From NCBI GenBank assembly GCA_004195715.1, contig PSPX01000003.1, forward strand, positions 5,232 through 69,231: 64,000 bases of DNA. Direction: 5' to 3'. The notes beneath the pieces were generated by a model that saw only the letters and a program-made list of their open reading frames with translations, was not told where the DNA came from and ran no database searches. This document shows positions 29,091 through 62,616 of the stretch, piece by piece; the first letter of the stretch is position 1, and every line of letters starts with the position of its first letter. The DNA is from Methanobacteriota archaeon (lineage in GTDB: Archaea > Thermoplasmatota > Poseidoniia > Poseidoniales > Thalassarchaeaceae). The translations under genes were made by a program, and so were the position numbers.

Positions 29091-29165
29091 ACGAGTGTAG
29101 TGTAGTGGTTATCACCGGGCGTTGCCAACGCCTGAACCCGGGTTCAAATCCCGGCACTCGTACCA
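29091..29165 (+). tRNA. tRNA-Gly (anticodon GCC), CCA encoded
   Basis: Hand-folded. Acceptor ACGAGTG/CACTCGT, anticodon stem GGGCG/CGCCT with loop TTGCCAA, T-arm CCGGG-TTCAAAT-CCCGG, discriminator A, CCA. Confidence 0.75.
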
Positions 29166-29245
29166 TTCGATTGTTCCAGATGCCCTCGAATCGCTCGTAG
29201 AGGTGACTTCGACAGATTCAATATGTAATGCCATGACTCCACTTC

Positions 29246-29590
29246 ATGAAAGAATTCAGAATCAACATGAGTGATGAACCCGGTTCTCTAGCTGAGCTCT
29301 GCGAGACTATCGCTTCGAAAGACGTCAACATACTGACTATCGTTGCAATATCGGGAGAACCCGCATCTGCTGCAATCTTGACCGACAACGCAGATGCCAC
29401 CTCTGCGGCGCTTGATGGAATGGGTGCTAAATACTCGGTAGCAGATCTCAAGTCAGCCAAGTTGGATCACAAGCCGGGCTCACTGGCCGCCTTCACAAGA
29501 GGGATGAGCAACTCCGAAGTCAACCTCACATCGCTATACGTCATGTCAATGGATGGCGACAGCGCCACCATCGGTTACACTACTGACTGA
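29246..29590 (+). CDS. ACT-domain protein (small amino-acid-binding regulatory domain)
   Basis: 114 aa. RINMSDEPGSLAELCETIASKDVNILTIVAIS fits the ACT beta-alpha-beta-beta-alpha-beta pattern. It sits between two tRNA genes. Confidence 0.5.
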   Translation: MKEFRINMSDEPGSLAELCETIASKDVNILTIVAISGEPASAAILTDNADATSAALDGMGAKYSVADLKSAKLDHKPGSLAAFTRGMSNSEVNLTSLYVMSMDGDSATIGYTTD

Positions 29591-29595
29591 TGCAA

Positions 29596-29670
29596 GCGGA
29601 CATGGTCTAGTGGTTATGACAGTAGGTTCCCAACCTGCTAACCCGGGTTCAACTCCCGGTGTCCGCACCA
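29596..29670 (+). tRNA. tRNA-Gly (anticodon CCC), CCA encoded
   Basis: Acceptor GCGGACA/TGTCCGC, anticodon stem GTAGG/CCTGC with loop TTCCCAA, T-arm CCGGG-TTCAACT-CCCGG, discriminator A, CCA. Confidence 0.75.
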
Positions 29671-29728
29671 ATCGCACGCGTGAGGGTTTAGCAACGCTAA
29701 TGCGCGAATCTGAATTCGAACGGCCACA

Positions 29729-29806
29729 GGGCCCGTGGGTTAGCTTGGCCTATACTTGGCGCTTCGGGGGCGTTAGACCTCAGTTCAAATCTGGGCGGGC
29801 CCACCA
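29729..29806 (+). tRNA. tRNA-Pro (anticodon CGG), CCA encoded
   Basis: Acceptor GGGCCCG/CGGGCCC, anticodon stem GGCGC/GCGTT with loop TTCGGGG, T-arm CTCAG-TTCAAAT-CTGGG, discriminator A, CCA. The D-arm pairing is irregular by hand-folding and needs tRNAscan confirmation. Confidence 0.6.
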
Positions 29807-36795: not shown

Positions 36796-36804
36796 CCTGC
36801 CACC

Positions 36805-37065
36805 TCAGGAGTACACTAGGGCTCCTGTCGGACACCAAAGGAGGCACCTCAGGCAGTCAGTGCAGTTATCCTCGATGACCTCGCAAAGTCCCTCGACGAT
36901 TAGCGCATCGTCCTTACAGGTCATCAGACAGTAAGAGCAGCCAACACAGAGTTCGTCGATTACCTGCAGTTTCAGGCCGTCAGTGATAGGCCTGTCATGG
37001 GCGATACCAGATTCCAACTCGGGGACAGCGCCCGGAGTCGCCTTGTTTCGAAACGCCTCGGCCAC
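36805..37065 (-). CDS. 2x[4Fe-4S] ferredoxin
   Basis: 86 aa. CVGCSYCLMTC and CTDCLRCLLWCP cluster motifs. It lies 9 bp upstream of the CrtI-like gene. Confidence 0.7.
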   Translation of the reverse strand: MAEAFRNKATPGAVPELESGIAHDRPITDGLKLQVIDELCVGCSYCLMTCKDDALIVEGLCEVIEDNCTDCLRCLLWCPTGALVYS

Positions 37066-37194
37066 GCCACCCCATTGCCGCCGACTATTTCAGATGTTAT
37101 CCACCAACTCACTACAACTACGACTCCGCCGATAGGCCGGTTTGCTGAATAGTAATGATGAACTCGCAAGCACACAGGCGAGAGAGGCGATCGA

Positions 37195-38669: not shown

Positions 38670-39689
38670 ATGGACATTGAACTCCTTGAGAAGACCGCAA
38701 GCGAACTGGTGGCTCCGGGCAAGGGAATACTCGCCGCTGATGAGAGCAACGGGACGATGTCGAAGCGCTTGGCTGCTGCCGGAGTCGAGCCCTCGTCTGA
38801 GTCTCGGCGCTCGTACCGAGCAAACTTGCTTGATACAGCAGGATACGAATCTGCTGTCGGAGGCGTCATATTGTTCGATGAGACAATCAGACAGAACATG
38901 GACGACGGCTCTCTCATAGCTGAGGCACTGAGTTCCAGAGGAATCCACCCAGGAATCAAGGTTGACACAGGGGCAAAGGATCTCGCCAATCACCCGGGTG
39001 AGAAAATTACAGAGGGTCTCGATGGACTTAGGGAACGCTGCATCGAGTATTTCGAGATGGGCGCGCGTTTCGCCAAGTGGCGAGCTGTCATCCGTATCTC
39101 TGAGGGGATACCTAGTCCTGCCTGCATATCTACCAACGCACACGCGCTGGCCCGATACGCTGCAATCTGCCAGGAGCAGGGGCTGGTCCCCATCATCGAG
39201 CCAGAGGTACTGATGGATGGCTCCCATGACGCGCAGCGCTGCTATGACGCCACAGCCGAGATTCTCGATGCGACCTTCGCCGCTTGCGCTGAGCAGGGCA
39301 TCCACATCCCGGGAGCACTGCTCAAACCCAACATGATCATCGCTGGCAACGACTGCCCCAACCAAATCTCGAGGGAAGAAGTGGCTAGGATGACAATCGA
39401 CTGTCTGATCAATCACGTCCCGCAAGACCTGCCGGGCATAGTCTTCCTCTCAGGAGGCCAGTCTGACAAGGATGCGACAGCCCACCTCAATCTGATGAAC
39501 CAGATGGATGTCGAGCACCCTTGGCAACTTTCTTACTCCTACGGCCGGGCACTGCAGGCACACGCCCTCACGACTTGGGCCAAAGGAGGTTCCGAGTCTG
39601 CAGCCGCTAGCCAGCGGATGTTCGCTCACCGGGCCGGCATGAACAGCCTAGCTCGAAGCGGTGATTGGGGACCCGACTTAGAGGTCTGA
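38670..39689 (+). CDS. Fructose-bisphosphate aldolase class I (bacterial/eukaryotic-type)
   Basis: Conserved start MDIELLEKTASELVAPGKGILAADES at ATG 38670. GIKVDTG, GLDGLRERC...GARFAKWR, and the Schiff-base Lys region LLKPNM. Confidence 0.85.
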   Translation: MDIELLEKTASELVAPGKGILAADESNGTMSKRLAAAGVEPSSESRRSYRANLLDTAGYESAVGGVILFDETIRQNMDDGSLIAEALSSRGIHPGIKVDTGAKDLANHPGEKITEGLDGLRERCIEYFEMGARFAKWRAVIRISEGIPSPACISTNAHALARYAAICQEQGLVPIIEPEVLMDGSHDAQRCYDATAEILDATFAACAEQGIHIPGALLKPNMIIAGNDCPNQISREEVARMTIDCLINHVPQDLPGIVFLSGGQSDKDATAHLNLMNQMDVEHPWQLSYSYGRALQAHALTTWAKGGSESAAASQRMFAHRAGMNSLARSGDWGPDLEV

Positions 39690-39941
39690 TTAGTTTTCGT
39701 CCAAGGCCCCAGGTCTCAGTTGCCAGACACAGATTTCGTAGCGACCGGAGAGGGCACCGCCACGTTTTGTCGTTGCGACCTTCATGATGTCCTTGTCTTT
39801 AGACAGGACGTTCCCCAGTTGCTGGGGAGTAGTCCCATGACGCATGGTGGAGTTCACGTGCTCAAGAATCTCTGTCGTGTTGGCTTCTCCTCTGTCATCC
39901 AAGAATTTTTTTATCTTCTGTCGTAGTCTGGTTGTCCTCAT
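39690..39941 (-). CDS. Small winged-helix DNA-binding protein (83 aa)
   Basis: Basic N-terminal helix (RLRQKIKKFL), TTEILEHV, and a putative recognition helix/wing. Paralogous to the adjacent 88-aa ORF and to the N-terminus of the 873-aa protein. Confidence 0.4.
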   Translation of the reverse strand: MRTTRLRQKIKKFLDDRGEANTTEILEHVNSTMRHGTTPQQLGNVLSKDKDIMKVATTKRGGALSGRYEICVWQLRPGALDEN

Positions 39942-39951
39942 TTAATTCCTC

Positions 39952-40218
39952 CTATTTGTTGTCGGGCTTAGCACGCTCATGGTGCTGTACCCACTCCTTG
40001 GTCGCCCATTCCGAGAGTGGGGGGGTACTGCCGGTCATTCCGCTCTTGCGAACAGTTCCGATGCGGACGATACTCGTGTCTGTCTCCATCAGTGATGCTA
40101 GATCCAAGCTTCCAGAGTAGCCTTCCTGATCACTCAGCCAAGTTGCGATCTCAGCACTGTTCCTAGGCTGCTCAGAGATGTATTTGCGAATGATAAGTCG
40201 GATTTTTTCCACTTCCAT
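39952..40218 (-). CDS. Small winged-helix DNA-binding protein (88 aa), tandem paralog
   Basis: KIRLIIRKYISEQPRNSAEIATWLS... aligns with the 83-aa neighbour. Confidence 0.4.
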   Translation of the reverse strand: MEVEKIRLIIRKYISEQPRNSAEIATWLSDQEGYSGSLDLASLMETDTSIVRIGTVRKSGMTGSTPPLSEWATKEWVQHHERAKPDNK

Positions 40219-40472
40219 CTGTCTCCCTCAAGCATACTCTCGGACCCGGCAGTCGGCCCGATGCGCATAGGATGGCGGGCGCTGATATAACCGTTCTGCA
40301 CGAAATCACACCTTTTCGTTACAAATAGTTGCTAGAAATGAGGGAGTTTTCAGGTTTGAACCAAGTGTGGAAATGAAACTGATATATTCTCCATAGGAAA
40401 TATGTAATTAACTGTAACTAAACAACATAATTTAATACATCAACTTTAGTAAGATGTATTGAGAGGTGGCGA

Positions 40473-43094
40473 GTGGTGCCAAATGAATCCCCTGAGCCAC
40501 TGAAACCCGATTATTCAGGCAGTGCTTGGAAAATCAGGAGCAAGCATCGCAGGAGACTCCTTGACCGGCTAACTGAGGGCGGTGACACCGTCAGTGTGCT
40601 GGCTAGGGATGTTGAACTCAGGGTCCCGCACGCCTCAGCAGAGATAAAACGATTGAGAAACGATGGACTGGTCTCCAGCGACCTATCTGCTGGGAGTCGT
40701 GGAGCTAGGATTCACCTGACCGAATTGGGCTGGGAGTCAGTGAGTGCTGACGAGTGGTCCAGGGCATCCGAGGCCTCTCCCTTGCCCGAAGACTCTAGCA
40801 TGTGCTGCCTGCTGTTTCGTGATGGTCCAAACCTCCTGCTTGGAGTTATGGAGCCTTGCGACTCCCCATTACTGTTGATTCCGGATCGCCCCCCTGTTTC
40901 GATTCTGGGCAATTCTGGTTCCACCGGAAGCGATGGGGTCCTTTGGAGCTGGGCGGTACTCAGGGAGAGGGAACCCCGGTGGTTCGACCTCTCGTCAATG
41001 GAGCCCAAGCCAAGCCCTCCGCCTCCTTCCGATCCGGAGAACATAGCGGCTTACTCGGGACAGCGCACTGTCGTCGGGATAATCCGCGCTAGGCTGCTTG
41101 ACGCCGAGCGACCGATTGCCATAGCGCCGGGTCAGTGGTTCGGGTCTCCGGACTTCCGGCCCGCGCCCCCGTTGCCTGAGGGCGGCTATCATCGGGGCCC
41201 GTGGGTACTTGGTGCGTGCCACGAGATGTCACCGGAGATTAGGCCGAAGGAACCAGTGGTCGCTGTGATGGAAGACAGGCTCCCCCGCTCCATGCTGCTT
41301 AGGACAGCGAGGAATAATTCTCTGGTCATCGCGGATCTCGGAGGGCTGGACACCGAGGGTGACCCGTACCCATTGGCAGCCCTTGACCCATGGATCGAAA
41401 GGGCCCACCCGCGTCTGAGCGATGCTGAGAGGAAACGGAGACTAGGTGCCCTGAAGGACAGGGTCAGCAAGGCGAGAAAGGTCAGGACCGAGGATTCCAC
41501 CTGGCGTCGATTCAGACAAGATTGGGGTGAGTCGGTGTTCACCGAGGAAGGAGATTCAATCAGGATCCTTGACCTAAGGGGGCTGGGTGACACGGCGGCT
41601 GAGGCATTAGTGAGATGGGCAATCAATGACGATGGCAAACGCCCGCTGACTATCGAAGTCGGGGTTGATATGCCCGAGGAACTAATCTCTTCAATCGCTT
41701 CTCACTCCAATCTCCGAATGGCTCTCCTCGAGGGTGAAGCATCTGCGTTCTCCAGCTTCGACATACTGGATGCTGATCCCCTGAGGCCGCTGCCTTGGCT
41801 GCGCCTGACAACTAGGGGGGGGAGGGTACTGCCAATGCGACTGGTCGATCCAGCCCAGGTCCCTGAGTTTTCAGAATCCGATGAACCGGTCGTACTAGAG
41901 TGGGAATCCCTAGGCATCGACATCGAGTTGGTCGGGAATATCGAAGAGGGCCACCTCTCAGTCATCAATTCAGCTGTAGTTCAATATCCCACAGGCAATG
42001 AGGAGTGGGCCAACCAAATGGAAGCCAGATACCCAATTGCGGCTTGGATAGCATCTCCCGCTAGGACTAGATGGCCACGCTGGCAGAGACTCAGGAACCG
42101 ACTCAGTCCGGAGTGGCTAGCACTCATGAATCTGGACGACCTCCCGCTGGAGAGGCTGTCAGAGGTCGCCGACGAGGCACCCGACTCGGTTTTGGAAGAA
42201 TTCTCCAAGAAGATTACCAACAGATTCAGACAGGATTCCGATGCAGCACTCAGAACGAGACCAGCGACGGATCCGAAGCAAGCAACCCGCGGAGCCGCTT
42301 GGGTAGCAGCTCAACTGCTGTCAAACGCCCCCTGGCTACCTGAGCACATGCACTCGGACTTGCTCCATTGGGCACTGGAGGCATGGCTCTCCGAGCCCCC
42401 AAGCGATTCGATGCCTGCACTGCAGGGAGTCGCGTGGCTTTATTCTCCGGGCCGCAGCGATGAATCCAGTTTCAGACCAATACTTGAGGGGATTCGGAGC
42501 AAGGGAAAGGAATCTCCTTCTGGCCATGACCTGCACACTTGGGCCAGCCTAGCAGACATGATGCTGGACGATTCGAAGATGAATCTCGATGAATTGGAGA
42601 GAATACTGGAACTACCTCCCGGCTGGTGGGCACCGATTTCCGTCAAGATACTCTCTGGGCTATTGGAGGAGGAGGATTCTACAGATTGGGTCATCGCCAA
42701 TACCGTCCCCTGGTGTGCGGCAGTGCTGCGTCCGATAGGCGATTGCTGTCAGGCACCCGGACTCCGTTCCTACGAGCATCCCGGATGCGACTCAGAACTG
42801 TACTCCCGCCTTTCCCGGAGGTTGAGGGGCAGGCGTGAGCGTCAGGGCATGCCCGATACCGCTGAACCACTGCTCGATTTACTCGACGCCCTAGACGCGG
42901 TGAATGATGGCAAATCTCCTTCGCCGGGAAAGACGCATCCCCTATCGGGGTGGCTCGCCCAGCCGTTGGAGAAATGGCCGGAGTTCTCTTCGTCCGAGAT
43001 CATGGACGGCGATGTTCACATCACTGAGAGGCTGCTCTTGAGGAGCTCAGGGTATCATCCAAAAATCGTCCCTTCAATCTCGATTTCGGGTTGA
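40473..43094 (+). CDS. Large orphan protein (873 aa) with N-terminal winged-helix domain
   Basis: GTG start preceded by GAGGTGG. N-terminus KIRSKHRRRLLDRLTEGGDTVSVLARDVELRVPHASAEIKRLRNDGLV is the same wHTH family as the two small upstream proteins. The remainder has no recognizable catalytic motif, with a Cys cluster near the C-terminus (WCAAVLRPIGDCCQAPG...HPGC). Confidence 0.5.
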   Translation: MVPNESPEPLKPDYSGSAWKIRSKHRRRLLDRLTEGGDTVSVLARDVELRVPHASAEIKRLRNDGLVSSDLSAGSRGARIHLTELGWESVSADEWSRASEASPLPEDSSMCCLLFRDGPNLLLGVMEPCDSPLLLIPDRPPVSILGNSGSTGSDGVLWSWAVLREREPRWFDLSSMEPKPSPPPPSDPENIAAYSGQRTVVGIIRARLLDAERPIAIAPGQWFGSPDFRPAPPLPEGGYHRGPWVLGACHEMSPEIRPKEPVVAVMEDRLPRSMLLRTARNNSLVIADLGGLDTEGDPYPLAALDPWIERAHPRLSDAERKRRLGALKDRVSKARKVRTEDSTWRRFRQDWGESVFTEEGDSIRILDLRGLGDTAAEALVRWAINDDGKRPLTIEVGVDMPEELISSIASHSNLRMALLEGEASAFSSFDILDADPLRPLPWLRLTTRGGRVLPMRLVDPAQVPEFSESDEPVVLEWESLGIDIELVGNIEEGHLSVINSAVVQYPTGNEEWANQMEARYPIAAWIASPARTRWPRWQRLRNRLSPEWLALMNLDDLPLERLSEVADEAPDSVLEEFSKKITNRFRQDSDAALRTRPATDPKQATRGAAWVAAQLLSNAPWLPEHMHSDLLHWALEAWLSEPPSDSMPALQGVAWLYSPGRSDESSFRPILEGIRSKGKESPSGHDLHTWASLADMMLDDSKMNLDELERILELPPGWWAPISVKILSGLLEEEDSTDWVIANTVPWCAAVLRPIGDCCQAPGLRSYEHPGCDSELYSRLSRRLRGRRERQGMPDTAEPLLDLLDALDAVNDGKSPSPGKTHPLSGWLAQPLEKWPEFSSSEIMDGDVHITERLLLRSSGYHPKIVPSISISG

Positions 43095-43454
43095 AAGCCA
43101 GTAAATATCTGACCGAGGGGTTCTTGACCACCCCCCATGGCCGATGTTTGCCCGAGCTGCAACACCGTGGCGACGAAGCCCCCCGCTGGAGGAATAGGAT
43201 GAATCACGGTACCAAGTTCGGGTCACCACTTGCCGAAGACCAGTGTGACCAGCTGCAACGGAATGATCACTGGAGCAAATCAAGTGGCCGGATTGTGTTA
43301 GGTCCCCCGATGACCGGAAGGAATGACTCAAGGGACTACCCCACAGTTCGACAGACGTCCCGGGGTGGGTCAGGCGCCCGAGCTTTGCTGTGAAGGACCG
43401 CCGTTACGCCCCGGGGCACACACACTCCATTTGTCCAAAAAAGGCGGGAATCTG

Positions 43455-44471
43455 ATGCACGACATCGGCCTAATCGGCGGCACCTTTGACCGCTTCCATG
43501 CCGGACACCTATCGCTGATGGAGGCCGGTCTGTCCAAATGCTCCTTCATTGAGGCCTGGCTCACCGCAGATAGCCTTGCTCACTCGAAGGATCCGCGGGT
43601 GAATTCATGGGGTACAAGGGCTCAGGAGATGAAGGAGGCGTTGGGGGACGATGCTGGCAGAGTTAGATTCCATACCCTCGAAGATAACCACGGACCCGCA
43701 CCGGCGCATGCTGATGCCACAGCGATTATTTGCACCGGCGAGACCCGCGCCGAGTGTGAGGAAATTAACCGACTAAGAGAAGGCAGCGACCTGCCACCGC
43801 TACACATCATCAGCGTAGGACACGTACTCGCATGGGACGACAAGCCGATATCCAGCTCTAGAATCAGAGCAGGAGAGATCGACCGTAACGGAAAACCATG
43901 GATTCCAAACTCGATTAGGGCGGGCAGAGTGGTCTTGACATCCCAGATCGAAGCAGAACTCAAGGAGCCCTTCGGTCAGTTGGTTTCTGGCCCGGAAGAC
44001 AATCCCTCCGTTGCAATGACAGAAGTCCTCACCCATGTCGAAGGGGAGTCGGGGCCGGTCATCGCTGTCGGCGATGTGACAGTCCGCACTCTGCAGGACC
44101 TCAATCGGCCAGCCGACATCGCCCTCATCGATGGACTCACTAGGAGGGAGCCTTGGGAGGGCGCAGACGGAATCGACTCGTCTCTGTATGACAAGACCCT
44201 GCAGTGTTCCAGCCCTGCTGGTTCCCTGACGCCTTCGTTGCTGGAGGCCTGTGAGCGGGCAATGAAATCCTGGAAGGAAGGGCGGTTAACCCATCTAATT
44301 CAGGTCGAAGGTGAGGAAGATCTAGCCCCACTTATTTTGCATCCACTGGCTCCCTTGGGTGCTGTTGTGCTATATGGCCAACCAGGAAAAGGAGTCGTAG
44401 TCAGATGGTGTGGAGAGGACGCCAAACAGCGTTGTCGCAGACTGCTCAGCGAATTCGTTCCCGCCGAATGA
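43455..44471 (+). CDS. Bifunctional CoA biosynthesis protein: archaeal-type phosphopantetheine adenylyltransferase fused to a DUF359-type GTP-dependent dephospho-CoA kinase
   Basis: Conserved start MHDIGLIGGTFDRFHAGH (nucleotidyltransferase H-x-G-H) at ATG 43455. C-terminal half has VIAVGDVTV...ALIDGLTRRE...QVEGEEDLAPL...VVLYGQP blocks of DUF359 / archaeal DPCK. Confidence 0.65.
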   Translation: MHDIGLIGGTFDRFHAGHLSLMEAGLSKCSFIEAWLTADSLAHSKDPRVNSWGTRAQEMKEALGDDAGRVRFHTLEDNHGPAPAHADATAIICTGETRAECEEINRLREGSDLPPLHIISVGHVLAWDDKPISSSRIRAGEIDRNGKPWIPNSIRAGRVVLTSQIEAELKEPFGQLVSGPEDNPSVAMTEVLTHVEGESGPVIAVGDVTVRTLQDLNRPADIALIDGLTRREPWEGADGIDSSLYDKTLQCSSPAGSLTPSLLEACERAMKSWKEGRLTHLIQVEGEEDLAPLILHPLAPLGAVVLYGQPGKGVVVRWCGEDAKQRCRRLLSEFVPAE

Positions 44472-45060: not shown

Positions 45061-46299
45061 TCAGAGTTGACCCTGCAGGTTGTATCTGCCGAGCGCGGCC
45101 TCGGCAATCATAGGTTCACTCTCACTCATTGTAGCGATGGCGTCCACCGCCTTGGGTATGGCCGAGTTGACCTGTTTACTCCTACCGCCGCGGCCCTTGC
45201 TGACGTTCCTAGCCATAATCAGCCCGAGCGTATCGAGTTCGTTGAGCAGCGAAGATATCCTCCTAGGGGTGAGCGGCTCGACACTGATCTTCATGCATGC
45301 TTCGGCATAAGTCCGGTAAGTCTCCCCAGTGGAGATGTTCCTCAGGCCGTTATCTTCGTTCATCCTAATTGAGAATAGCAACAACTTTTGGTGCAGTGGC
45401 AGAGTCTTCAGCACAGGAGTAACTTGGTCGTACTCCAACTGACTCTGCGCCAATCTGACGTGCCTGGGGTCTACAACCTTCTGAGCTCGCTGCTCTGCCT
45501 TCTGCACTGAGATGCGTAACAGGTCGAGCGCTCTGCGCGCGTCCCCGTGCTCCTGTGCGGCCAGTGCCGAGCAGAGTTCGAGCACACCAGAATCGAGGAC
45601 CCCCTCGCGAAGACCGGTGCTAACACGCTCGGTTAGGATGTCCTGAATCTCTGGAGCCCCGTAGGGGTGGAAGACGACATCCTCCTGACTGAGCCTCGAG
45701 CTGACCCGAGGATCGAGCTGCTGAGTGAAGTGCAGATCGTTGCTGATCCCGATGAGACAGCAGCGGGCGTTTTTCAGAGAGGTATTCAAGCTGGTCAGGT
45801 TGTACAGCAAACCATCTCCAGCTCTGGCCACGAGATTGTCGATCTCGTCCAGCACTAGAATGTGCACCCCTCCTGCCCGATCCATCCTCTCAATCAGAAC
45901 TTCGAGAACCCTGTCGGTGGGCCAACCGGTGAATGGGATTGGAGTATCTCCCCGTCGAGCGAGTTGGGAGGCGATACTCTGAACGACGCGATACTTGGTG
46001 TCCACGACACGGCAGTTGATCTCGTAGGTCTCAACGCTCTGCCCCATCTCCTTGCCCTTGTCGAGAAGCTGCCCTAAGACGAATCTTGTGACCACGGTTT
46101 TGCCTGACCCGGGTACTCCATAGAGCAGCATGTTCGAAGGGATGTGGCCATTCAAGGCATCAACCATATTGCGTACCAAAGCATCCACTTCGTGTTCTCT
46201 GTGAGGCAGGGTAGATGGCTCGAAGGCGTGATCAAACGCTCGCCTGTCGACGAAGAGACTGTCTTGCCCGAGAATCTTTTCGAAAATGTTTCCTTCCAT
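45061..46299 (-). CDS. cdc6: Orc1/Cdc6 replication initiator
   Basis: 412 aa. LLYGVPGSGKT (Walker A), VLDEID (Walker B), sensor regions, and a C-terminal winged helix. Confidence 0.9.
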   Translation of the reverse strand: MEGNIFEKILGQDSLFVDRRAFDHAFEPSTLPHREHEVDALVRNMVDALNGHIPSNMLLYGVPGSGKTVVTRFVLGQLLDKGKEMGQSVETYEINCRVVDTKYRVVQSIASQLARRGDTPIPFTGWPTDRVLEVLIERMDRAGGVHILVLDEIDNLVARAGDGLLYNLTSLNTSLKNARCCLIGISNDLHFTQQLDPRVSSRLSQEDVVFHPYGAPEIQDILTERVSTGLREGVLDSGVLELCSALAAQEHGDARRALDLLRISVQKAEQRAQKVVDPRHVRLAQSQLEYDQVTPVLKTLPLHQKLLLFSIRMNEDNGLRNISTGETYRTYAEACMKISVEPLTPRRISSLLNELDTLGLIMARNVSKGRGGRSKQVNSAIPKAVDAIATMSESEPMIAEAALGRYNLQGQL

Positions 46300-46700
46300 T
46301 TTCTTTCACCAAGGGTCCAGTCGCGTATCCAGCTCCCTCTTACTCTGGTCGAGTAGGTGTCGGCGAACGCGGATTCTCAGCGAGGGTGCAGGGGGTAATA
46401 AGACTGTCCGAGAAGAACGAAATCTTGCTTGATTATCATGCCCTCTAATGCCTCAGTACCATGGCCCTCTAACATCCGCCTAAGAACTCTCTTAGTTGTA
46501 CTCAGTCAGGCTTTTTTATCAATATAATTTCAGTGTATTTATTGCATCTAATTCATTCATTCATGTATTTCTCCCGCCCCTGTCACTATGGCAAGTGATC
46601 GAACCTGCCGAGGCTTCTTCGACAGCGATATTCGACACTATCTCTGTGAACTACTCAGGGCTCCGATGTAAGCTAATATAAAACAAGATAAATTATTCAC
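46300..46700. other. Candidate replication origin (oriC): AT-rich intergenic region adjacent to orc1/cdc6
   Basis: ~400-bp non-coding region, markedly AT-rich at 46510-46575 (DUE-like). Direct repeats GCCCTCTAA x2 (46441-46473). Palindrome CTAAGAactcTCTTAG (46480-46495). ORB-like dyad TCACTatggcaAGTGA next to a C/G-string CTCCCGCCCC (46571-46598). Confidence 0.45.
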
Positions 46701-47512
46701 GAATTTCTTTGCAGAGATAGTTGGCCATCGTCGCCTATATTCAGGTAGTCACCATCCTCGAGTTGGATGATCGAATCGGGCAGATCAGGCATCCTAAAAC
46801 CCGCTTCCACTCCAGTGGCGCTCGCAAAGTTATGAGTCACTAAGACCAGCGCGTGAGGATGCCTCTGAGCGAATGTAATCGCATCCGATGGAGTATGGTG
46901 ATGGGGACTGTTCACGAAGTCTGGGATACCCATCTCGAGCAGCACGACATCGGCATTCTGGGCCCGCTGCTCGATGCCTTCGCAAGGACCCGAGTCTCCG
47001 CAGTGGAGGAACCTGAATCCACTTGAGTGAATGAACTCATAGCCATGCGGGTCGGTCTCCAGAGTGTGACTCACCGGAAACCTCTCAAAACTCCAGTCCG
47101 TTCCTGCCAGTTCACCCGACTCCGACTCCGACCAGTCGACCCCACTCTCTAGGACGCCATCGAGACTCCCTGGGAATCCCGTTCTGCACAAGTCACTGAG
47201 CAGTTCCCTGCCACCTGGCCTGAGGCAAACTCCCAACGCATTCTCAGATTTTGGGTCTGAGATGTACTTCCTCTCGAGCAGTATGAATGGGAAGCCGAAG
47301 ATGTGGTCGGCGTGCCAGTGGGTGATCAAGAGGTGCTTGAGATTAGCGGGCGAGATATCGACCCTTTGCAGTTGGACCAGCGCTGTTGGTGGCGCGTCTA
47401 CTAGCACGCTGCCGTCCAGCAGTGCCAGCGCATGCATCCTACCAGGCGGTGAGAAGGCATTCCCTGTGCCGAGGAAGTCGATACGCGCCACGAGCCGCGA
47501 TGAGGGCATCAT
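46697..47512 (-). CDS. MBL-fold metallo-hydrolase
   Basis: 271 aa. LLITHWHADHIFG (HxHxDH) and downstream His/Asp ligands. Confidence 0.65.
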   Translation of the reverse strand: MMPSSRLVARIDFLGTGNAFSPPGRMHALALLDGSVLVDAPPTALVQLQRVDISPANLKHLLITHWHADHIFGFPFILLERKYISDPKSENALGVCLRPGGRELLSDLCRTGFPGSLDGVLESGVDWSESESGELAGTDWSFERFPVSHTLETDPHGYEFIHSSGFRFLHCGDSGPCEGIEQRAQNADVVLLEMGIPDFVNSPHHHTPSDAITFAQRHPHALVLVTHNFASATGVEAGFRMPDLPDSIIQLEDGDYLNIGDDGQLSLQRNS

Positions 47513-57081: not shown

Positions 57082-57158
57082 TGGTGCGCTCTGGGGAATT
57101 CGAATCCCCGTGGACGGGTTGGAAACCCGTAATCATAACCAGACTAGATCAAGAGCGC
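57082..57158 (-). tRNA. tRNA-Gly (anticodon TCC), CCA encoded
   Basis: Reverse complement reads GCGCTCT...acceptor/AGAGCGC, anticodon stem ACGGG/CCCGT with loop TTTCCAA, T-arm GGGGA-TTCGAAT-TCCCC, discriminator A, CCA. Confidence 0.75.
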
Positions 57159-60263: not shown

Positions 60264-61010
60264 TCAGTCGTTAGTCACTCGGGGCGCTAGGAAGTACGTC
60301 CAACTCGCTCCGCCATCATTACTGTTCCAGTCCAGCCTCAATGGGTACTTGTCTTGAAACTGCATACGAATGTCTTGGGTCAATCCAGAGGCGAGTTTCC
60401 TCGTCAGAGGGTCGAGGAATTGCAGGCTGTAGGTGCCTTGGGTAGGCGAGGGGCAGACCAACTCGCTGAGTTCACCGGACTCGAAGCGTACATTGACTCC
60501 TTCGCCAGCCTCAACGGTCACGCTTATCCGCAGCTCCTTACTGTCAAGGCTTAGATCTACTAACTCACCTACAAACTTGGCCGCCCTGAGTGCTCTGGAG
60601 AGCTTCTCCGCCCCGATGGCGGCACTGCAGTCGAAATCAAGAACTGGAAGTTTAGGTTCCTGCATGGAACCGGTGTCGAGTCCGCGCAGTATTCTGTGGA
60701 CCTCGCCGACTCTTACATTGACTGCTCCGACCGCGTCATCGTAGTCAATTTCGACCAGGTCGCCCGGGCCAGCGAGAGTCAGGAGGTCACGCAGTTTGCC
60801 TAGTTCCAGTCCAATTTCGACCGGCTCGACTTCGTAGGTCTCGAAGCAGGCGTCTGAGATGGTAGCGCTAAGGAGGGCAACGTGAGAACCGTCGACAACG
60901 TTCACTGTCAGTCCTTTCTCTCCCCAGCTCAACTTCGCTTCTTCGGTCAGGACCGAGAGCAAATCGACAATCTCCCTCATCAGTTGAGTATTTGCCGTCA
61001 CTCTCAGCAT
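60264..61010 (-). CDS. pcn: DNA polymerase sliding clamp PCNA
   Basis: 248 aa. Two-domain PCNA fold with N-terminus MLRVTANTQLMREIVDLLSVLTEEAKLSWGEKGLTVNVVD. Confidence 0.9.
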   Translation of the reverse strand: MLRVTANTQLMREIVDLLSVLTEEAKLSWGEKGLTVNVVDGSHVALLSATISDACFETYEVEPVEIGLELGKLRDLLTLAGPGDLVEIDYDDAVGAVNVRVGEVHRILRGLDTGSMQEPKLPVLDFDCSAAIGAEKLSRALRAAKFVGELVDLSLDSKELRISVTVEAGEGVNVRFESGELSELVCPSPTQGTYSLQFLDPLTRKLASGLTQDIRMQFQDKYPLRLDWNSNDGGASWTYFLAPRVTND

Positions 61011-61068
61011 GGAATCACCTCGTTACATATCTCCTATAAATCGAAGGTCTTTCATTCATTCGGGACAC

Positions 61069-61449
61069 TTATTGGTATTCTCGGAAACGCTTGTCACAAT
61101 TTTTGCATTGGCAAATTTTAGTTTCTGGTTCATCACTTGACCTAGTTTGCTTGAGTTCGACGAATATCTCGTTACAATCACACACAGGGCAGCGAATGTC
61201 CCCCACTCTGAGAGTACCTCGAGCTATTTCCGGCTCAACGACTTCGGTTAAATGCTTGAGCGATTTTTCATCGCCTGTGGCAGTGGCGCTGGTCAGATCC
61301 ACCGTCTCTCCAGTCATCGGGTCGGTGAAAGTGCCTCCTGAACCGTCTCTGCCAGTCAGAGGTCCCTCGTATTTACACTGGTAATTGTCGCATCTGATGT
61401 TCCCTGAAGAATCGGGGTATGACAGTGCACCACATTCAGGACAAAACAC
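61069..61449 (-). CDS. tfs: Transcription factor S (TFS) / RNA polymerase subunit M
   Basis: 126 aa. N-terminal Zn ribbon CPECG...CDNYQC and C-terminal TFIIS-type ribbon CPVCDCNE...QTRSSDEPETKICQCKNC with the acidic hairpin. Confidence 0.9.
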   Translation of the reverse strand: MFCPECGALSYPDSSGNIRCDNYQCKYEGPLTGRDGSGGTFTDPMTGETVDLTSATATGDEKSLKHLTEVVEPEIARGTLRVGDIRCPVCDCNEIFVELKQTRSSDEPETKICQCKNCDKRFREYQ

Positions 61450-61614
61450 CGCTATCGAACACCTAGTCGGTTAAACGCCAACCGAACAGCGACATCCAAA
61501 CCATCTATTGAACTATCGCTTATGCGCACCAGTGGAAAAGCCCGAACTCAGTCCCTATTGAGCGACTTAAATGGGACCGCACCGTTGAAGCGAAGCCGGC
61601 ACTACGGAGTAATC

Positions 61615-62616
61615 ATGCGTATTCACTACGATTGGAGGCTTGCTAGAGTCGTCGATTCCGACGGCGAAGTCTTTGACGAGTTGGGTTGGTCGCCCAAAAG
61701 GTCTGTCCGCGCTTTGGCAGACCGACTGTCAGACCTGCAATCGGGCAGGATGAGCCCCGAGGCGAGAACCCTCAGTAAGAGATTCCCGGATGCTGAGGCG
61801 GATGGAATGGCGGCGATGTCGGACCCCGACTGGCCCGAGCTTGAGGCTGAGGAACAAGAGATGCTCTCTGAGGCAGCGGCTATACTGGCCAAGCGAGGAG
61901 TGGCCGATGCCGCTGCCGACCTCGACCGACGACTCGACATGCTGTCTTCGGCGGCGATTGAACTGAGGTCATCGTGGACCACCAGTGAGGCGAGATGTAT
62001 CGAATGGGCAGGGCTGTTTTTGTCCGAGGTGGATTTAGATGGGCAGAGGCGAGAAATTCCAGCAGCTGTAGCTGAGGCTGAATCGATTGATGCAGTCGCT
62101 GTCGCACTCGATGTCGCAACCCCCGCACACCAGCCCGAGCAGGCCGAGTGGGTGGCCTTGAATGGCCATGCGGTTGGCGTTGTTGCTCTGGCAGAGAGGC
62201 TGGGAGTGGCCGAGGCGGCCACGCGTGAACTCGCGCGTCAGTACGTACCCACCCTGAGTATGCTAGTCGGCCCGTTAGGAGCTGCTAGGCTAGTGGTGTT
62301 AGCAGGAGGTCGCGAGAGACTGGCCAGAATGCCGAGCGGCAGCCTACAGGTCCTCGGGACCCGTGGTGCCATGGCTGCCCATCGCAGGGGCGCTCCCTCG
62401 CCCAAGCATTCGCCCGTTCTGTTCTCTCTGCCACAGGTCTCGAGATCTCCTCGATGGGTCAGGGGAAAGATTGCCCGATACATGGCTGGTAAGTGTTCGA
62501 TTGCGGTTCGCGTCGATCACTTCGACGGCGAGTCGTGGAGTGAGGAAAGGATAGCAGAGATCAACCAAGAGTGCGAGAACATCCGCGAGAGGTTCCCAAA
62601 GCCACCAAGGAGGTGA
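61615..62616 (+). CDS. C/D box snoRNP protein Nop5 (Nop56/58 homolog)
   Basis: The ORF runs from 61522, but the conserved start MRIHYDW... is at ATG 61615. C-terminal Nop domain: LVGPLGAARLVVLAGGRERLARMPSGSLQVLGTRGAMAAHRRGAPSPKHSPVLFSLPQV...RGKIARYMAGKCSIAVRVD. Confidence 0.85.
   Translation: MRIHYDWRLARVVDSDGEVFDELGWSPKRSVRALADRLSDLQSGRMSPEARTLSKRFPDAEADGMAAMSDPDWPELEAEEQEMLSEAAAILAKRGVADAAADLDRRLDMLSSAAIELRSSWTTSEARCIEWAGLFLSEVDLDGQRREIPAAVAEAESIDAVAVALDVATPAHQPEQAEWVALNGHAVGVVALAERLGVAEAATRELARQYVPTLSMLVGPLGAARLVVLAGGRERLARMPSGSLQVLGTRGAMAAHRRGAPSPKHSPVLFSLPQVSRSPRWVRGKIARYMAGKCSIAVRVDHFDGESWSEERIAEINQECENIRERFPKPPRR

What the first reader, a model, noticed from the sequence alone, without database searches (positions are those of the whole stretch)
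45061..46740. orc1/cdc6 adjacent to a ~400-bp AT-rich region with dyad and G-string elements: candidate oriC
Archaeal origins are typically AT-rich intergenic regions beside an orc1/cdc6 gene and carry origin recognition boxes (dyad plus G-string). This is established knowledge. Directly upstream of orc1/cdc6 here is a non-coding region containing three elements. First, an AT-rich DUE-like stretch (46510-46575). Second, an ORB-like element read on the reverse strand: a GGGGCGGGAG string next to the dyad TCACTtgccatAGTGA, at 46571-46598. Third, direct repeats GCCCTCTAA x2 and the palindrome CTAAGAactcTCTTAG. This is the second AT-rich island in the window and the one with a canonical initiator gene.
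Basis: partly seen in the sequence, partly recalled or inferred. Interest (0 to 1): 0.6.

Follow-up and report, generated by a model that had tools for sequence, protein, structure and literature searches.

The report
Orc1 upstream spacer lacks origin boxes
The gene is a genuine replication-initiator gene (Orc1/Cdc6) of a Marine Group II archaeon, but the AT-rich DNA in front of it looks like promoter and leader sequence, not initiator-binding sites. The only canonical origin recognition box in the 64-kb window lies about 5.4 kb away, beside a far better conserved AT-rich region that is the more likely replication origin.

Summary
The window comes from a Marine Group IIb (Thalassarchaeaceae) archaeon. 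ORF 45061-46299(-) is a true Orc1-1-class initiator.

The proposed "ORB-like" element is not an origin recognition box (ORB):
- It scores nothing against an ORB weight matrix.
- 5-bp dyads and G-runs occur at chance frequency.
- Only 17 of its 28 bases are invariant among the five closest genomes, and 4 of 28 among eight.

Across about 115 related loci, the conserved parts of the spacer are single-copy and promoter-like:
- a BRE/TATA-like block about 100 nt upstream of the ATG;
- a leader carrying GAATCCGCGTT and a Shine-Dalgarno sequence;
- two further TATA-like boxes.

About ten species lack the middle of the spacer altogether.

The one canonical ORB in 64 kb is GTTCCACCGGAAGCGATGGGGT at 40918-40939.
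- It lies inside a conserved 873-aa HTH protein gene.
- It is present at the same codon in 77 of 77 related loci.
- Its synonymous sites are frozen.

About 520 bp upstream of it lies a highly conserved AT-rich intergenic region (40270-40440). This region holds a mini-ORB and the least stable duplex in the window.

That region is the better oriC candidate. This is inferred from sequence, not shown by experiment.

The parts
45061..46299 (-). orc1/cdc6 gene, 412 aa, Orc1-1 (ORB-binding initiator) class
   Evidence: Pfam and NCBIfam hits. Best PDB relatives are 2v1u_A and 2qby_A. Identity is 75-99% across 71 related genomes, while the neighbouring genes fall to 42-57%. It is the only orc1 copy in the window.
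46300..46310 (-). GGTGAAAGAAA immediately before the ATG; contains the Shine-Dalgarno-like GGTGA
   Evidence: GTG is conserved in nearly all of 45 aligned leaders. The function is inferred.
46341..46355 (-). Small hairpin in the orc1 leader (TACTC-gacca-GAGTA)
   Evidence: Different subfamilies have different stems at the same place, for example TAACTC/GAGTTA and CTGCTC/GAGCAG (by eye). The mean MFE z-score for positions -78..-1 is -1.22, against +0.27 for a coding control. RNAalifold found no single consensus structure.
46365..46375 (-). Conserved GAATCCGCGTT in the presumed 5' leader
   Evidence: Its core 9-10-mers (AATCCGCGT, GAATCCGCGT) occur exactly in 28 of 68 spacers, with close variants in most others. 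Always single-copy and at the same position.
46393..46409 (-). Proximal orc1 promoter-like block CGGACAGTCTTATTACC (purine-rich BRE-like stretch plus TATA-like TCTTATTA), followed 8-9 nt later by conserved CTCG
   Evidence: CTTATTACC is the most widespread 9-mer in the spacers, found in 41 of 68. The position about 100 nt upstream of the ATG is fixed in all loci. 47 of 56 bases of 46360-46415 are invariant in the 8 closest genomes. The promoter role is inferred.
46440..46472 (.). Direct repeat GCCCTCTAA x2 (longer unit TTAGAGGGC[C]ATGRTA on the orc1 strand)
   Evidence: Exact copies. 3.7% of shuffles reach 9 nt. Conserved only in the closest clade, L001-L004.
46501..46548 (-). AT-rich core. 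On the orc1 strand it reads: dyad GATGCAataaaTACAC (46533-46548), an A/T box TTATATTGATAAAAAA (46513-28), and CTGACTGAG (46501-09).
   Evidence: The family-wide pattern is RTGYA-N5-7-TACAY, then an A/T box, then ACTG about 25 nt downstream. 56 of 61 bases are invariant in the 5 closest genomes. It is the second least stable 60-mer of the window. It is missing from the roughly 205-nt spacer class.
46571..46598 (.). Not an ORB.
   Evidence: No weight-matrix match. Dyads occur at chance frequency. 17 of 28 bases are invariant in the 5 closest genomes, and 4 of 28 in 8.
46674..46683 (-). TATA-like box (TTTTATATTA on the orc1 strand) just after the stop codon of the upstream gene
   Evidence: A box of the form AAAWTAACTTSTATAAATA / TTTATATT lies at the same place in nearly all loci. 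Its function is not known.
46697..47512 (-). Upstream neighbour: a metallo-beta-lactamase-fold hydrolase. Its 3' end bounds the spacer.
   Evidence: Pfam Lactamase_B_2. Syntenic in 68 of 71 genomes.
40270..40440 (.). Highly conserved AT-rich intergenic region between the DUF3860 genes and the 873-aa gene. Contains divergent TATA-like boxes (40283-91 and 40427-37), GTTCTGCA (40293-40300), and an inverted GTTACA (40318-23) facing TGTAAT (40403-08) and TGTAAC (40413-18).
   Evidence: Many columns are at least 90% identical in 62 unique sequences, even where the flanking protein is only 51-55% identical. No RNA structure signal and no Rfam hit.
40365..40381 (+). GTGTGGAAATGAAACTG. It matches the right half and spacer of published ORBs (…CAGTGGAAATGAAGGGGT) but lacks the left arm and the G-string.
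   Evidence: Unique in the window. Conserved across the family. ORB sequences are taken from PMC4153887 Table 2.
40388..40401 (+). Mini-ORB-like dyad TCTCCATAGGAAAT (TTTTCCATAGGAAAT in most relatives)
   Evidence: It holds the only exact TCCANNGGAAA in 64 kb (40390-40400). A core-matrix hit of at least 10 bits occurs at this position in 68 of 78 loci. It contains the TTCC…GAA cores that are invariant in Pyrococcus mini-ORBs (PMC1904270).
40400..40459 (.). Least stable duplex of the whole window (80% AT). The best DUE candidate.
   Evidence: Nearest-neighbour free-energy scan, z = 5.5. It abuts the mini-ORB.
40918..40939 (+). Canonical full ORB GTTCCACCGGAAGCGATGGGGT (dyad plus G-string), embedded in codons 149-156 of the 873-aa gene
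   Evidence: Best hit of a heterologous ORB matrix in the window: 21.4 bits, with the next hit at 12.4. Present at the same codon in 77 of 77 related loci, in some almost perfect (ATTCCAGTGGAAATGAAGGGGT, 33.1 of 34.9 bits). Third-position entropy of its conserved 4-fold codons is 0.48, 0 and 0 bits, against a gene median of 1.78.
40473..43094 (+). 873-aa protein of unknown function with a weak N-terminal ArsR-type HTH. It hosts the ORB in a variable linker.
   Evidence: Pfam HTH_20 and HTH_5 hits below the cut-off. Homologues are about 870 aa and are named 'hypothetical' or 'ArsR family' by their sources. No relative in the PDB. Codon-periodic conservation shows that it is coding.
39690..40218 (-). 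Two tandem DUF3860 genes (83 aa and 88 aa), transcribed away from the conserved intergenic region
   Evidence: Pfam PF12976, E = 4e-39 and 3e-20. PDB 2od5, labelled 'hypothetical protein'.

Best explanation
The interval holds the single Orc1-1-type initiator gene of a Marine Group IIb archaeon and its 397-nt upstream spacer.

The spacer is best read as transcription-control DNA for orc1. It has these parts:
- a proximal BRE/TATA-like promoter block about 100 nt upstream of the ATG;
- a modestly structured leader of about 80 nt, with a conserved GAATCCGCGTT and a Shine-Dalgarno sequence;
- an AT-rich core further upstream that has the anatomy of a second, regulated promoter: a dyad, an A/T box, and ACTG about 25 nt downstream;
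- a third TATA-like box at the far end of the spacer.

The spacer contains no Orc1 recognition boxes.

The ORB-type origin candidate of this chromosome segment lies 4-6 kb downstream of orc1, at about 40.27-40.94 kb. It consists of a highly conserved AT-rich intergenic region and a full ORB:
- a mini-ORB at 40388-40401;
- an ORB half-site at 40365-40381;
- the least stable duplex of the window at 40400-40459;
- a full canonical ORB at 40918-40939, about 520 bp to the right, written into a variable linker of the neighbouring 873-aa gene.

The inferred mechanism is that Orc1 binds these boxes, the adjacent AT-rich DNA melts, and MCM is loaded there.

Shown here: sequence identity of the boxes to published ORBs, their family-wide conservation, DNA-level selection on the intragenic box, and duplex instability. 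Inferred: Orc1 binding, origin firing, and the promoter roles.
For: Against ORBs in the spacer:
- No ORB matrix hit, and no mini-ORB core at a consistent position in 78 loci.
- No k-mer recurs within the spacers of 68 genomes.
- Orc1 itself is 75-99% identical across these genomes, so its cognate sites should be conserved too.

For a promoter/leader reading of the spacer:
- The conserved elements are single-copy, fixed in position and TATA-like.
- The leader folds better than shuffled sequence (mean z = -1.22), while the middle of the spacer does not.
- There is no conserved ORF. Substitutions in the 61-aa ORF fall 12:9:9 over the three codon positions, and relatives carry a frameshift or stops.
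- No RNA consensus structure and no Rfam hit.
- About 10 species lack the middle ~190 nt but keep the promoter block.

For the 40-kb locus as the origin candidate:
- The heterologous ORB matrix has its one strong hit in the window at 40918-40939: 21.4 bits, against 12.4 for the next.
- The same site is present in 77 of 77 loci, reaching 33.1 of 34.9 bits.
- The family consensus CTTCCACCGGAAGCGAAGGGGT is close to the archaeal consensus CTTCCAGTGGAAACGAAAGGGGT (PMC4153887).
- Its synonymous sites are frozen: 0-0.48 bits, against a median of 1.78 over 130 control codons.
- The intergenic region is conserved far beyond its flanking genes.
- It contains the least stable 60-mer of the window.

Precedents:
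- An intragenic ORB cluster in Pyrococcus dp1 is bound by Cdc6 (PMC1904270).
- oriC is not adjacent to cdc6 in T. litoralis and T. sibiricus (PMC4640148).
- ORBs lie downstream of orc1/cdc6.1 in Methanomassiliicoccales.
Against: - Only one full ORB was found, plus one mini-ORB and one half-site. All read best on the same strand. Characterised origins usually have two or more ORBs in inverted orientation close around the DUE.
- About 460 bp of coding sequence separates the full ORB from the AT-rich stretch.
- The conserved intergenic region also has to hold two divergent promoters. Some of its conservation may therefore be regulatory, and a lone ORB could serve Orc1-dependent gene regulation.
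- The orc1-proximal AT-rich core is almost as unstable (z = 5.2 against 5.5). It is well conserved among the closest genomes, and the spacer length (394-404 nt) is unexplained, so a role in initiation is not excluded.
- Strand-asymmetry tests were uninformative. The cumulative GC skew has a broad trough over about 36-47 kb, and 4-fold-site skew per gene shows no replichore signal.
- The archaeal promoter assignments rest on consensus resemblance only.
Confidence: 0.6

Rival explanations
1. One reading: the orc1-proximal spacer is oriC. Its AT-rich core (46510-46575) is the DUE, and Orc1 or another factor binds lineage-specific, non-canonical sites there.
For: - It is directly upstream of the only orc1 gene.
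- It holds the second least stable duplex of the window.
- The AT-rich core is 56/61 invariant in the closest genomes and keeps a conserved dyad family-wide.
- The spacer length is conserved at 394-404 nt.
Against: - No ORB or mini-ORB match and no repeated motif.
- The proposed ORB is not conserved although Orc1 is.
- The middle of the spacer is deleted in about 10 species.
- A canonical, selected ORB exists elsewhere.
Confidence: 0.15
2. An extended or bipartite initiation zone, as in Thermococcales, where cdc6 sits between two Cdc6-bound clusters. Orc1 would be anchored at the 40-kb boxes, and the orc1-proximal AT-rich core would be a second unwinding or loading site, or a weak second origin.
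For: - orc1 lies between the two most unstable AT-rich stretches of the window, about 6 kb apart.
- The gene order MBL - spacer - orc1 - p211 - CoA gene - p873 - conserved intergenic region is kept across the family.
- Pyrococcus is a precedent (PMC1904270).
Against: In Pyrococcus both clusters carry ORBs; here one side has none. Nothing links the two regions except a shared short TGTA half-site, which is weak evidence in AT-rich DNA.
Confidence: 0.12
3. The 40.9-kb ORB and the mini-ORB are regulatory Orc1 sites that control the 873-aa gene or the DUF3860 genes. The chromosomal origin lies outside this window.
For: - There is a single full ORB with no inverted partner.
- The boxes straddle the promoter and 5' part of the 873-aa gene.
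- The skew analyses give no origin signal here.
Against: - ORB plus an AT-rich minimum plus a nearby orc1 is the established signature of archaeal origins (PMC4010727 abstract; PMC4153887).
- Conservation of the box at synonymous sites over the whole family argues for an essential role.
- Orc1-1-type proteins are the initiators.
Confidence: 0.1
4. The fixed-length spacer encodes a non-coding RNA (for example a C/D-box-like sRNA around 46500-46550) or a small protein.
For: - The length is conserved.
- A TATA-like box sits at its start.
- The motifs RTGAUGY…CUGA resemble C and D boxes in some loci.
- There is a weak Rfam snoRNA hit (E = 5).
Against: - The C-box and D-box consensus is not kept across the family: AGTGTA, GGTGAA, ACTGC and ACTAA occur instead.
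- RNAalifold predicts 0 base pairs.
- MFE z-scores are about 0 on both strands.
- No conserved ORF, and the local ORF shows no codon-position bias.
Confidence: 0.03

Closest known systems
ORB-type archaeal replication origins (S. solfataricus oriC1, Pyrococcus oriC; predicted origins of Methanomassiliicoccales, the sister Thermoplasmata order)
   Same: - An Orc1-1-class initiator gene lies nearby.
- The 22-nt box has the TTCCA-NN-GGAA dyad, a short spacer and a GGGGT string. It shares the one-base-shorter spacer of the Methanomassiliicoccales ORB (GTTCCAGTGGAAATGG-AGGGGTA).
- An AT-rich, unstable stretch lies next to a mini-ORB.
- As in Methanomassiliicoccales, the boxes lie downstream of orc1/cdc6.1.
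   Different: - Only one full ORB was found, not inverted pairs 39-256 nt apart.
- The full ORB lies inside a coding sequence, about 460 bp from the AT-rich stretch and 4.1 kb from the 3' end of orc1.
- The spacer directly upstream of orc1 carries no ORB at all.
- No experimental data exist for this lineage.
Intragenic ORB cluster in the Pyrococcus/Thermococcus dp1 gene (Matsunaga et al. 2007, PMC1904270)
   Same: ORB sequences are embedded in a protein-coding gene a few kb from cdc6/orc1, conserved across an order, on the opposite side of cdc6 from another AT-rich region. In Pyrococcus these are bound by Cdc6 in vivo and in vitro.
   Different: - In Pyrococcus the main oriC, with ORB1, ORB2 and many mini-ORBs, is the intergenic region directly upstream of cdc6, and dp1 holds a secondary cluster. 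Here the orc1-proximal region has no ORB.
- The host gene here is an uncharacterised HTH protein, not a polymerase subunit.
Thermococcus litoralis and T. sibiricus, where the predicted oriC is not adjacent to cdc6 (Cossu et al. 2015, PMC4640148)
   Same: They show that linkage between orc1 and the origin can be loose, and that mini-ORB clusters predict the origin better than adjacency or skew does.
   Different: Those predictions required more than 4 clustered mini-ORBs in an intergenic region. This locus has far fewer boxes.

Membership tests
Orc1/Cdc6 initiator (Orc1-1 class) - gene 45061-46299 | AAA+ ATPase domain, Cdc6 lid and C-terminal winged-helix domain, scoring above the family cut-offs | tested here: met
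   Pfam AAA/AAA_22, Cdc6_lid (81 bits) and Cdc6_C (80 bits). TIGR02928 scores 377 bits against a cut-off of 181.
Orc1/Cdc6 initiator (Orc1-1 class) - gene 45061-46299 | Closer to the ORB-binding Orc1-1/ORC1 proteins than to the Orc1-2/Orc1-3 paralogues | tested here: met
   2v1u_A at 7e-89 and 2qby_A at 3e-84, against 2qby_B (Orc1-3) at 9e-39 and 1w5s (ORC2) at 2e-21. It also evolves slowly, 75-99% identity across the family, as described for orc1/cdc6.1 (PMC4153887).
   Directly upstream of the orc1 ATG at 46299.
   46512-46571 is 80% AT, z = 5.2, second in the window. Composition alone does not show unwinding.
   No full-matrix hit of at least 8 bits and no core hit of at least 9 bits. No consistently placed core hit in 78 loci. 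No recurring k-mer in 68 spacers.
   The proposed element is 17/28 invariant in 5 genomes with Orc1 at least 98% identical, and 4/28 in 8 genomes. The middle of the spacer is absent in about 10 species.
   The organism is uncultured and only 64 kb are in hand. Cumulative GC skew and 4-fold-site skew were uninformative.
ORB-type archaeal oriC - tested on 40270-40940 | Sequence matching the ORB consensus (dyad plus G-string) | tested here: met
   40918-40939 scores 21.4 bits with a matrix from another order and is the top hit of the window. Present in 77 of 77 loci, up to 33.1 of 34.9 bits. DNA-level selection is shown.
ORB-type archaeal oriC - tested on 40270-40940 | Several ORBs or mini-ORBs in inverted orientation around the DUE | tested here: inconclusive
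   One full ORB, one mini-ORB (a palindromic core, so its orientation is ambiguous) and one half-site. No inverted full partner within ±6 kb in any locus.
ORB-type archaeal oriC - tested on 40270-40940 | AT-rich DUE adjacent to the boxes | tested here: met
   40400-40459 is the least stable 60-mer of 64 kb (z = 5.5) and abuts the mini-ORB.
ORB-type archaeal oriC - tested on 40270-40940 | Orc1 binding and initiation in vivo | not testable with these tools
   No experimental data. No paper on a Marine Group II origin was found in the searchable library.
C/D-box sRNA (considered for 46500-46550) | Conserved C (RUGAUGA) and D (CUGA) boxes with a terminal stem | tested here: not met
   The boxes degrade to AGTGTA/GGTGAA and ACTGC/ACTAA across the family. 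The Rfam hit has E = 5. No structure signal.

The most novel reading that the evidence does not exclude
The origin of Marine Group IIb archaea may be built unusually. It would have a single full ORB kept by selection inside the reading frame of a lineage-specific 870-aa HTH protein. It would also have an almost invariant 170-bp intergenic module: a mini-ORB, GTTCTGCA, and inverted TGTAAC sites. That module would be read by additional, still unknown origin-associated factors; the neighbouring DUF3860 proteins or the HTH protein itself are candidates. Separately, the orc1-proximal spacer, with its length fixed at about 400 bp, would be a distinct architectural or regulatory device that couples initiator expression to the origin. 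This would be the first origin architecture proposed for the most abundant planktonic archaea of the surface ocean. It would also give a sequence marker for replication-rate (peak-to-trough) estimates from metagenomes.
Probability: 0.25. Interest if true: 0.6.

Novelty: new member of a known kind. Interest (0 to 1): 0.38.

Why it matters
Marine Group II archaea are abundant and uncultured, and no origin has been described for them in the literature I could search. The usual shortcut, 'the AT-rich region next to orc1 is oriC', would place the origin about 6 kb off in this lineage and would name the wrong sequence elements. The conserved ORB at a fixed codon of a family-specific gene, together with the invariant intergenic module beside it, gives three things:
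- a concrete, testable origin candidate;
- a simple marker for orienting MAG contigs and for coverage-based growth-rate estimates;
- a clear natural example of a protein-coding sequence constrained at synonymous sites by a DNA-binding site.

For the finding as submitted, the result is mostly corrective. The gene call is right, the ORB call is wrong, and the feature class is ordinary.

Tried and rejected
- Small protein in the spacer: no ORF is conserved across 68 loci. In the clade-specific 61-aa ORF 46496-46681(+), substitutions fall evenly over codon positions, and relatives carry a frameshift or stops. Rejected.
- Known RNA family: Rfam finds only tRNAs in the window at gathering threshold. 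At permissive threshold it finds only noise in 46200-46800 and nothing in 39650-41000.
- Structured ncRNA in the middle of the spacer or in the 40-kb intergenic region: RNAalifold gives 0 pairs for the spacer, and 15 invariant pairs with no compensatory change for the intergenic region. MFE z-scores are about 0. Rejected.
- C/D-box sRNA at 46500-46550: the boxes are not conserved. Rejected.
- Conserved leader hairpin: stems are visible by eye in the subfamilies and the mean z-score is -1.22, but there is no single alignable consensus. Kept only as 'modestly structured leader'.
- Regular ~132-nt phasing of three TATA-like boxes: on recounting, the spacings are about 166 and 114 nt. Dropped.
- Second full ORB or an inverted partner: none found within ±6 kb in 77 loci or anywhere in the 64-kb window. 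The second-best matrix hit (61363-61393) lies inside a TFS zinc-ribbon gene and is taken as chance.
- Strand asymmetry: cumulative GC skew has broad minima at about 37 kb and about 61.5 kb. Pooled 4-fold-site GC skew per gene across up to 80 loci ranges from -0.02 to -0.43 with no replichore pattern. Inconclusive.
- Other orc1 paralogues in the window: none.
- Whole-contig skew on the long related contigs (up to 1.68 Mb) could not be computed, because only ±10 kb of such contigs can be fetched.
- I could not check whether the ~205-nt-spacer species keep the intragenic ORB. The loci I hold for those species stop about 120-200 nt short of it.

Full report
**Source and gene content.** The Orc1 protein of the window recovers 71 loci from species-representative genomes. 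All are Marine Group II / Thalassarchaeaceae (Poseidoniales) MAGs, at 75-99% identity. The window is therefore a Marine Group IIb archaeal chromosome segment with 56.4% GC.

**The gene.** ORF 45061-46299(-) encodes 412 aa.
- Pfam finds AAA+, Cdc6_lid and Cdc6_C domains, and TIGR02928 scores 377 bits against a cut-off of 181.
- Its closest solved relatives are the two ORB-bound initiators, A. pernix ORC1 (2v1u, 7e-89) and S. solfataricus Orc1-1 (2qby_A, 3e-84). These are far ahead of Orc1-3 and ORC2.
- It is the only copy in the window.
- It evolves much more slowly than its neighbours, as reported for orc1/cdc6.1 in Thermoplasmata (PMC4153887).

**Check of the observation.**
- The spacer 46300-46696 lies between the orc1 ATG and the stop codon of a co-oriented metallo-beta-lactamase-fold gene.
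- Every quoted string is at the quoted place.
- The spacer has 44.8% GC, and 46512-46571 is the second least stable 60-mer of the 64 kb (z = 5.2).
- The structural arguments do not exceed chance. There are 4 inverted repeats (arm at least 5 bp, loop at most 10 nt) against 4.04 in shuffles, and 3 G4/C4 runs against 2.95 expected. The 9-nt direct repeat is reached by 3.7% of shuffles.

**Is the proposed element an ORB?**
- Published ORBs of the sister order Methanomassiliicoccales, and the archaeal consensus CTTCCAGTGGAAACGAAAGGGGT, are listed in PMC4153887 Table 2.
- Pyrococcus mini-ORBs have invariant TTCC and GAA cores (PMC1904270).
- A weight matrix from the ten Methanomassiliicoccales ORBs gives no hit of at least 8 bits in the spacer. 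Its 14-nt core gives none of at least 9 bits.

**Comparative test of the spacer.** In 68 of the 71 genomes the upstream neighbour is the same hydrolase. Aligned spacers show the following.
- The ORB-like element changes even in genomes whose Orc1 is 98-99% identical. 17 of 28 positions are invariant in the five closest genomes and 4 of 28 in eight.
- No 8-10-mer recurs within spacers across the family.
- The GCCCTCTAA repeat and the palindrome are confined to the closest clade.

What is conserved is single-copy and fixed in position:
- a block CGGACAGTCTTATTACC-N9-CTCG about 100 nt upstream of the ATG (46393-46409), a purine-rich stretch plus a TATA-like box;
- GAATCCGCGTT (46365-46375);
- GGTGA before the ATG;
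- a TATA-like box just after the hydrolase stop codon (46674-46683);
- in the AT-rich core, a dyad RTGYA-N5-7-TACAY, an A/T box, and ACTG about 25 nt further on (46501-46548).

By established knowledge of archaeal promoters (BRE/TATA about 25-30 nt upstream of the start), these look like promoters. That assignment is an inference.

**Other readings of the spacer.**
- No ORF is conserved. The local 61-aa ORF shows no third-position excess and is broken in relatives.
- Rfam gives nothing significant.
- RNAalifold predicts no pairs in the middle of the spacer, and its folding energies equal those of shuffles on both strands.
- The last 78 nt before the ATG fold somewhat better than shuffles: mean z = -1.22, with 26% below -2, against +0.27 for a coding control.
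- Subfamily-specific stems occur at the same place, but no single consensus could be aligned.
- A C/D-box reading of the AT-rich core fails because the boxes are not kept.

One feature remains unexplained. The distance from the end of the hydrolase gene to the orc1 ATG is 394-404 nt in about 100 loci, although the middle is barely alignable.

**Where the ORBs are.** The same matrix has one outstanding hit in the 64 kb: GTTCCACCGGAAGCGATGGGGT at 40918-40939(+), scoring 21.4 bits against 12.4 for the next. It lies in codons 149-156 of an 873-aa ORF (40473-43094) that has a weak N-terminal ArsR-type HTH.

I fetched 80 metagenome loci with an alignment of this protein.
- In all 77 loci that include the 5' part of the gene, the box sits at the same codon on the same strand. 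It is the best hit in 72 loci and the second best in 5.
- Some copies are almost identical to published ORBs, for example ATTCCAGTGGAAATGAAGGGGT at 33.1 of 34.9 bits.
- The family consensus is CTTCCACCGGAAGCGAAGGGGT.

The region is coding, because third positions vary periodically around it. The box lies in a variable linker. Among 130 conserved four-fold-degenerate codons of the gene (72 unique sequences), third-position entropy has a median of 1.78 bits and a 5th percentile of 1.22. The three such codons inside the box have 0.48, 0 and 0 bits. The amino acids encoded there differ between lineages (STGSDGV against SSGNEGV), while TCC, GGA and GGG stay fixed. This shows selection on the DNA itself.

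**The neighbouring intergenic region.** The region 40219-40472 lies between two DUF3860 genes and the 873-aa gene. It is the most AT-rich part of the window (27.5% GC in 120 nt) and contains its least stable 60-mer, 40400-40459 (z = 5.5).

Unlike the orc1 spacer, it is conserved almost base for base over about 170 nt, even where the flanking protein is 51-55% identical. It contains:
- TCTCCATAGGAAAT (TTTTCCATAGGAAAT in most relatives), which includes the only exact TCCANNGGAAA of the window. A core hit occurs at this position in 68 of 78 loci.
- GTGTGGAAATGAAACTG, which equals the right half plus spacer of published ORBs.
- Two divergent TATA-like boxes.
- An invariant GTTCTGCA.
- An inverted GTTACA … TGTAAT/TGTAAC arrangement.

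There is no RNA-structure or Rfam signal. No further full ORB exists within ±6 kb in any locus or anywhere in the window. The only two consistently placed mini-ORB cores are these two sites.

**Interpretation.** Because Orc1 is 75-99% identical across the family, its recognition sites should be conserved. The conserved consensus boxes are at 40.37-40.94 kb and not in the orc1 spacer.

The best-supported reading is that the origin candidate of this segment is the 40.27-40.94-kb locus. The orc1-proximal spacer would then be chiefly the control region of orc1.

There are precedents for both unusual aspects:
- Cdc6-bound ORBs inside the dp1 coding sequence in Pyrococcus (PMC1904270).
- Origins not adjacent to cdc6 in two Thermococcus species (PMC4640148).
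- ORBs downstream of orc1/cdc6.1 in Methanomassiliicoccales.

**Limits.**
- There is one full box rather than inverted pairs.
- The boxes straddle a promoter and 460 bp of coding DNA.
- The boxes could serve regulation instead of initiation.
- The orc1-proximal AT-rich core is nearly as unstable and cannot be excluded as an unwinding site.
- Skew analyses were uninformative: there are broad cumulative GC-skew troughs and no replichore signal at four-fold sites pooled over up to 80 loci.
- No binding or initiation data exist, and no paper on a Marine Group II origin was found.

**Verdict.** The feature is a new member of a known kind, an ORB-type archaeal origin candidate in an undescribed lineage. 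It has two modestly unusual traits: an ORB maintained inside a reading frame, and an ORB-free, fixed-length spacer next to orc1.

Noticed in passing
window 46300-46696; loci L001-L071 and L072-L151: The distance from the end of the hydrolase gene to the orc1 ATG is held at 394-404 nt in about 100 loci, although the middle ~250 nt is barely alignable. A second discrete class of ~205 nt (L020, L025, L027, L031, L033, L037, L041, L064, L066; 174 nt in L063) lacks the middle. No ORF or RNA-structure signal explains the fixed length.
   Followed up: partly
window 40293-40300, 40318-40323, 40403-40408, 40413-40418: Invariant GTTCTGCA, plus an inverted arrangement GTTACA … TGTAAT/TGTAAC that flanks the mini-ORB pair about 90 bp apart. 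It shows no covariation, so these are probably protein-binding sites. A TGTA-N5-7-TACA dyad with the same half-site also sits in the orc1 spacer (46533-46548). The same factor might bind both, but this was not tested.
   Followed up: no
window 40665-40672 (codons 65-67 of the 873-aa gene): A second short run, GGACTGGT, is conserved at synonymous positions (third-position entropy of Gly65 is 0.3 bits). It lies inside the HTH-coding part and is the only other such outlier in the gene. It could be another DNA-level signal or a codon constraint.
   Followed up: no
window 39690-39941(-) and 39952-40218(-): Two tandem DUF3860 genes (Pfam PF12976; PDB 2od5, 'hypothetical protein') are transcribed away from the conserved AT-rich region. 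Their function is unknown and their position beside the ORB locus is conserved.
   Followed up: partly
window 40473-43094(+): A family of ~870-aa proteins with a weak N-terminal ArsR-like HTH and many invariant Trp, Pro and Gly residues. No Pfam domain covers the remaining ~660 aa and there is no PDB relative. All listed homologues are at least 54% identical, and those with a source name come from Thalassarchaeaceae, Marine Group II or Thermoplasmatota MAGs, always in synteny with orc1.
   Followed up: partly
window 43323-44471(+): A fused coenzyme-A gene: an N-terminal cytidylyltransferase-like domain (phosphopantetheine adenylyltransferase) joined to a C-terminal DUF359 domain (GTP-dependent dephospho-CoA kinase), in one 382-aa ORF.
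   Followed up: no
window 60264-62616: More information-processing genes lie about 14 kb from orc1: PCNA (60264-61010, -), a TFS/TFIIS-type zinc-ribbon protein (61069-61449, -) and a Nop56/58-type protein (61522-62616, +). The second-best ORB-matrix hit of the window (61363-61393, palindrome TTTACACTGGTAAT) lies inside the TFS gene and is probably chance.
   Followed up: partly
window 29091-29806 and 57082-57158: A tRNA cluster (Gly-GCC, Gly-CCC, Pro-CGG) at about 29 kb, and tRNA-Gly-TCC at 57.1 kb.
   Followed up: no
window 36796-37194: Another 399-nt intergenic gap, at the main gene-orientation switch (genes mostly on the - strand to the left, + strand to the right) and at a cumulative GC-skew minimum. 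It is not AT-rich and has no ORB hit.
   Followed up: no
window 46341-46355 and the homologous positions in L001-L071: The orc1 leader carries small hairpins whose stems differ between subfamilies (TACTC/GAGTA, TAACTC/GAGTTA, CTGCTC/GAGCAG, CCTCTC/GAGAGG), often with a G-rich loop (GATGGGG). This suggests post-transcriptional control of the initiator.
   Followed up: partly
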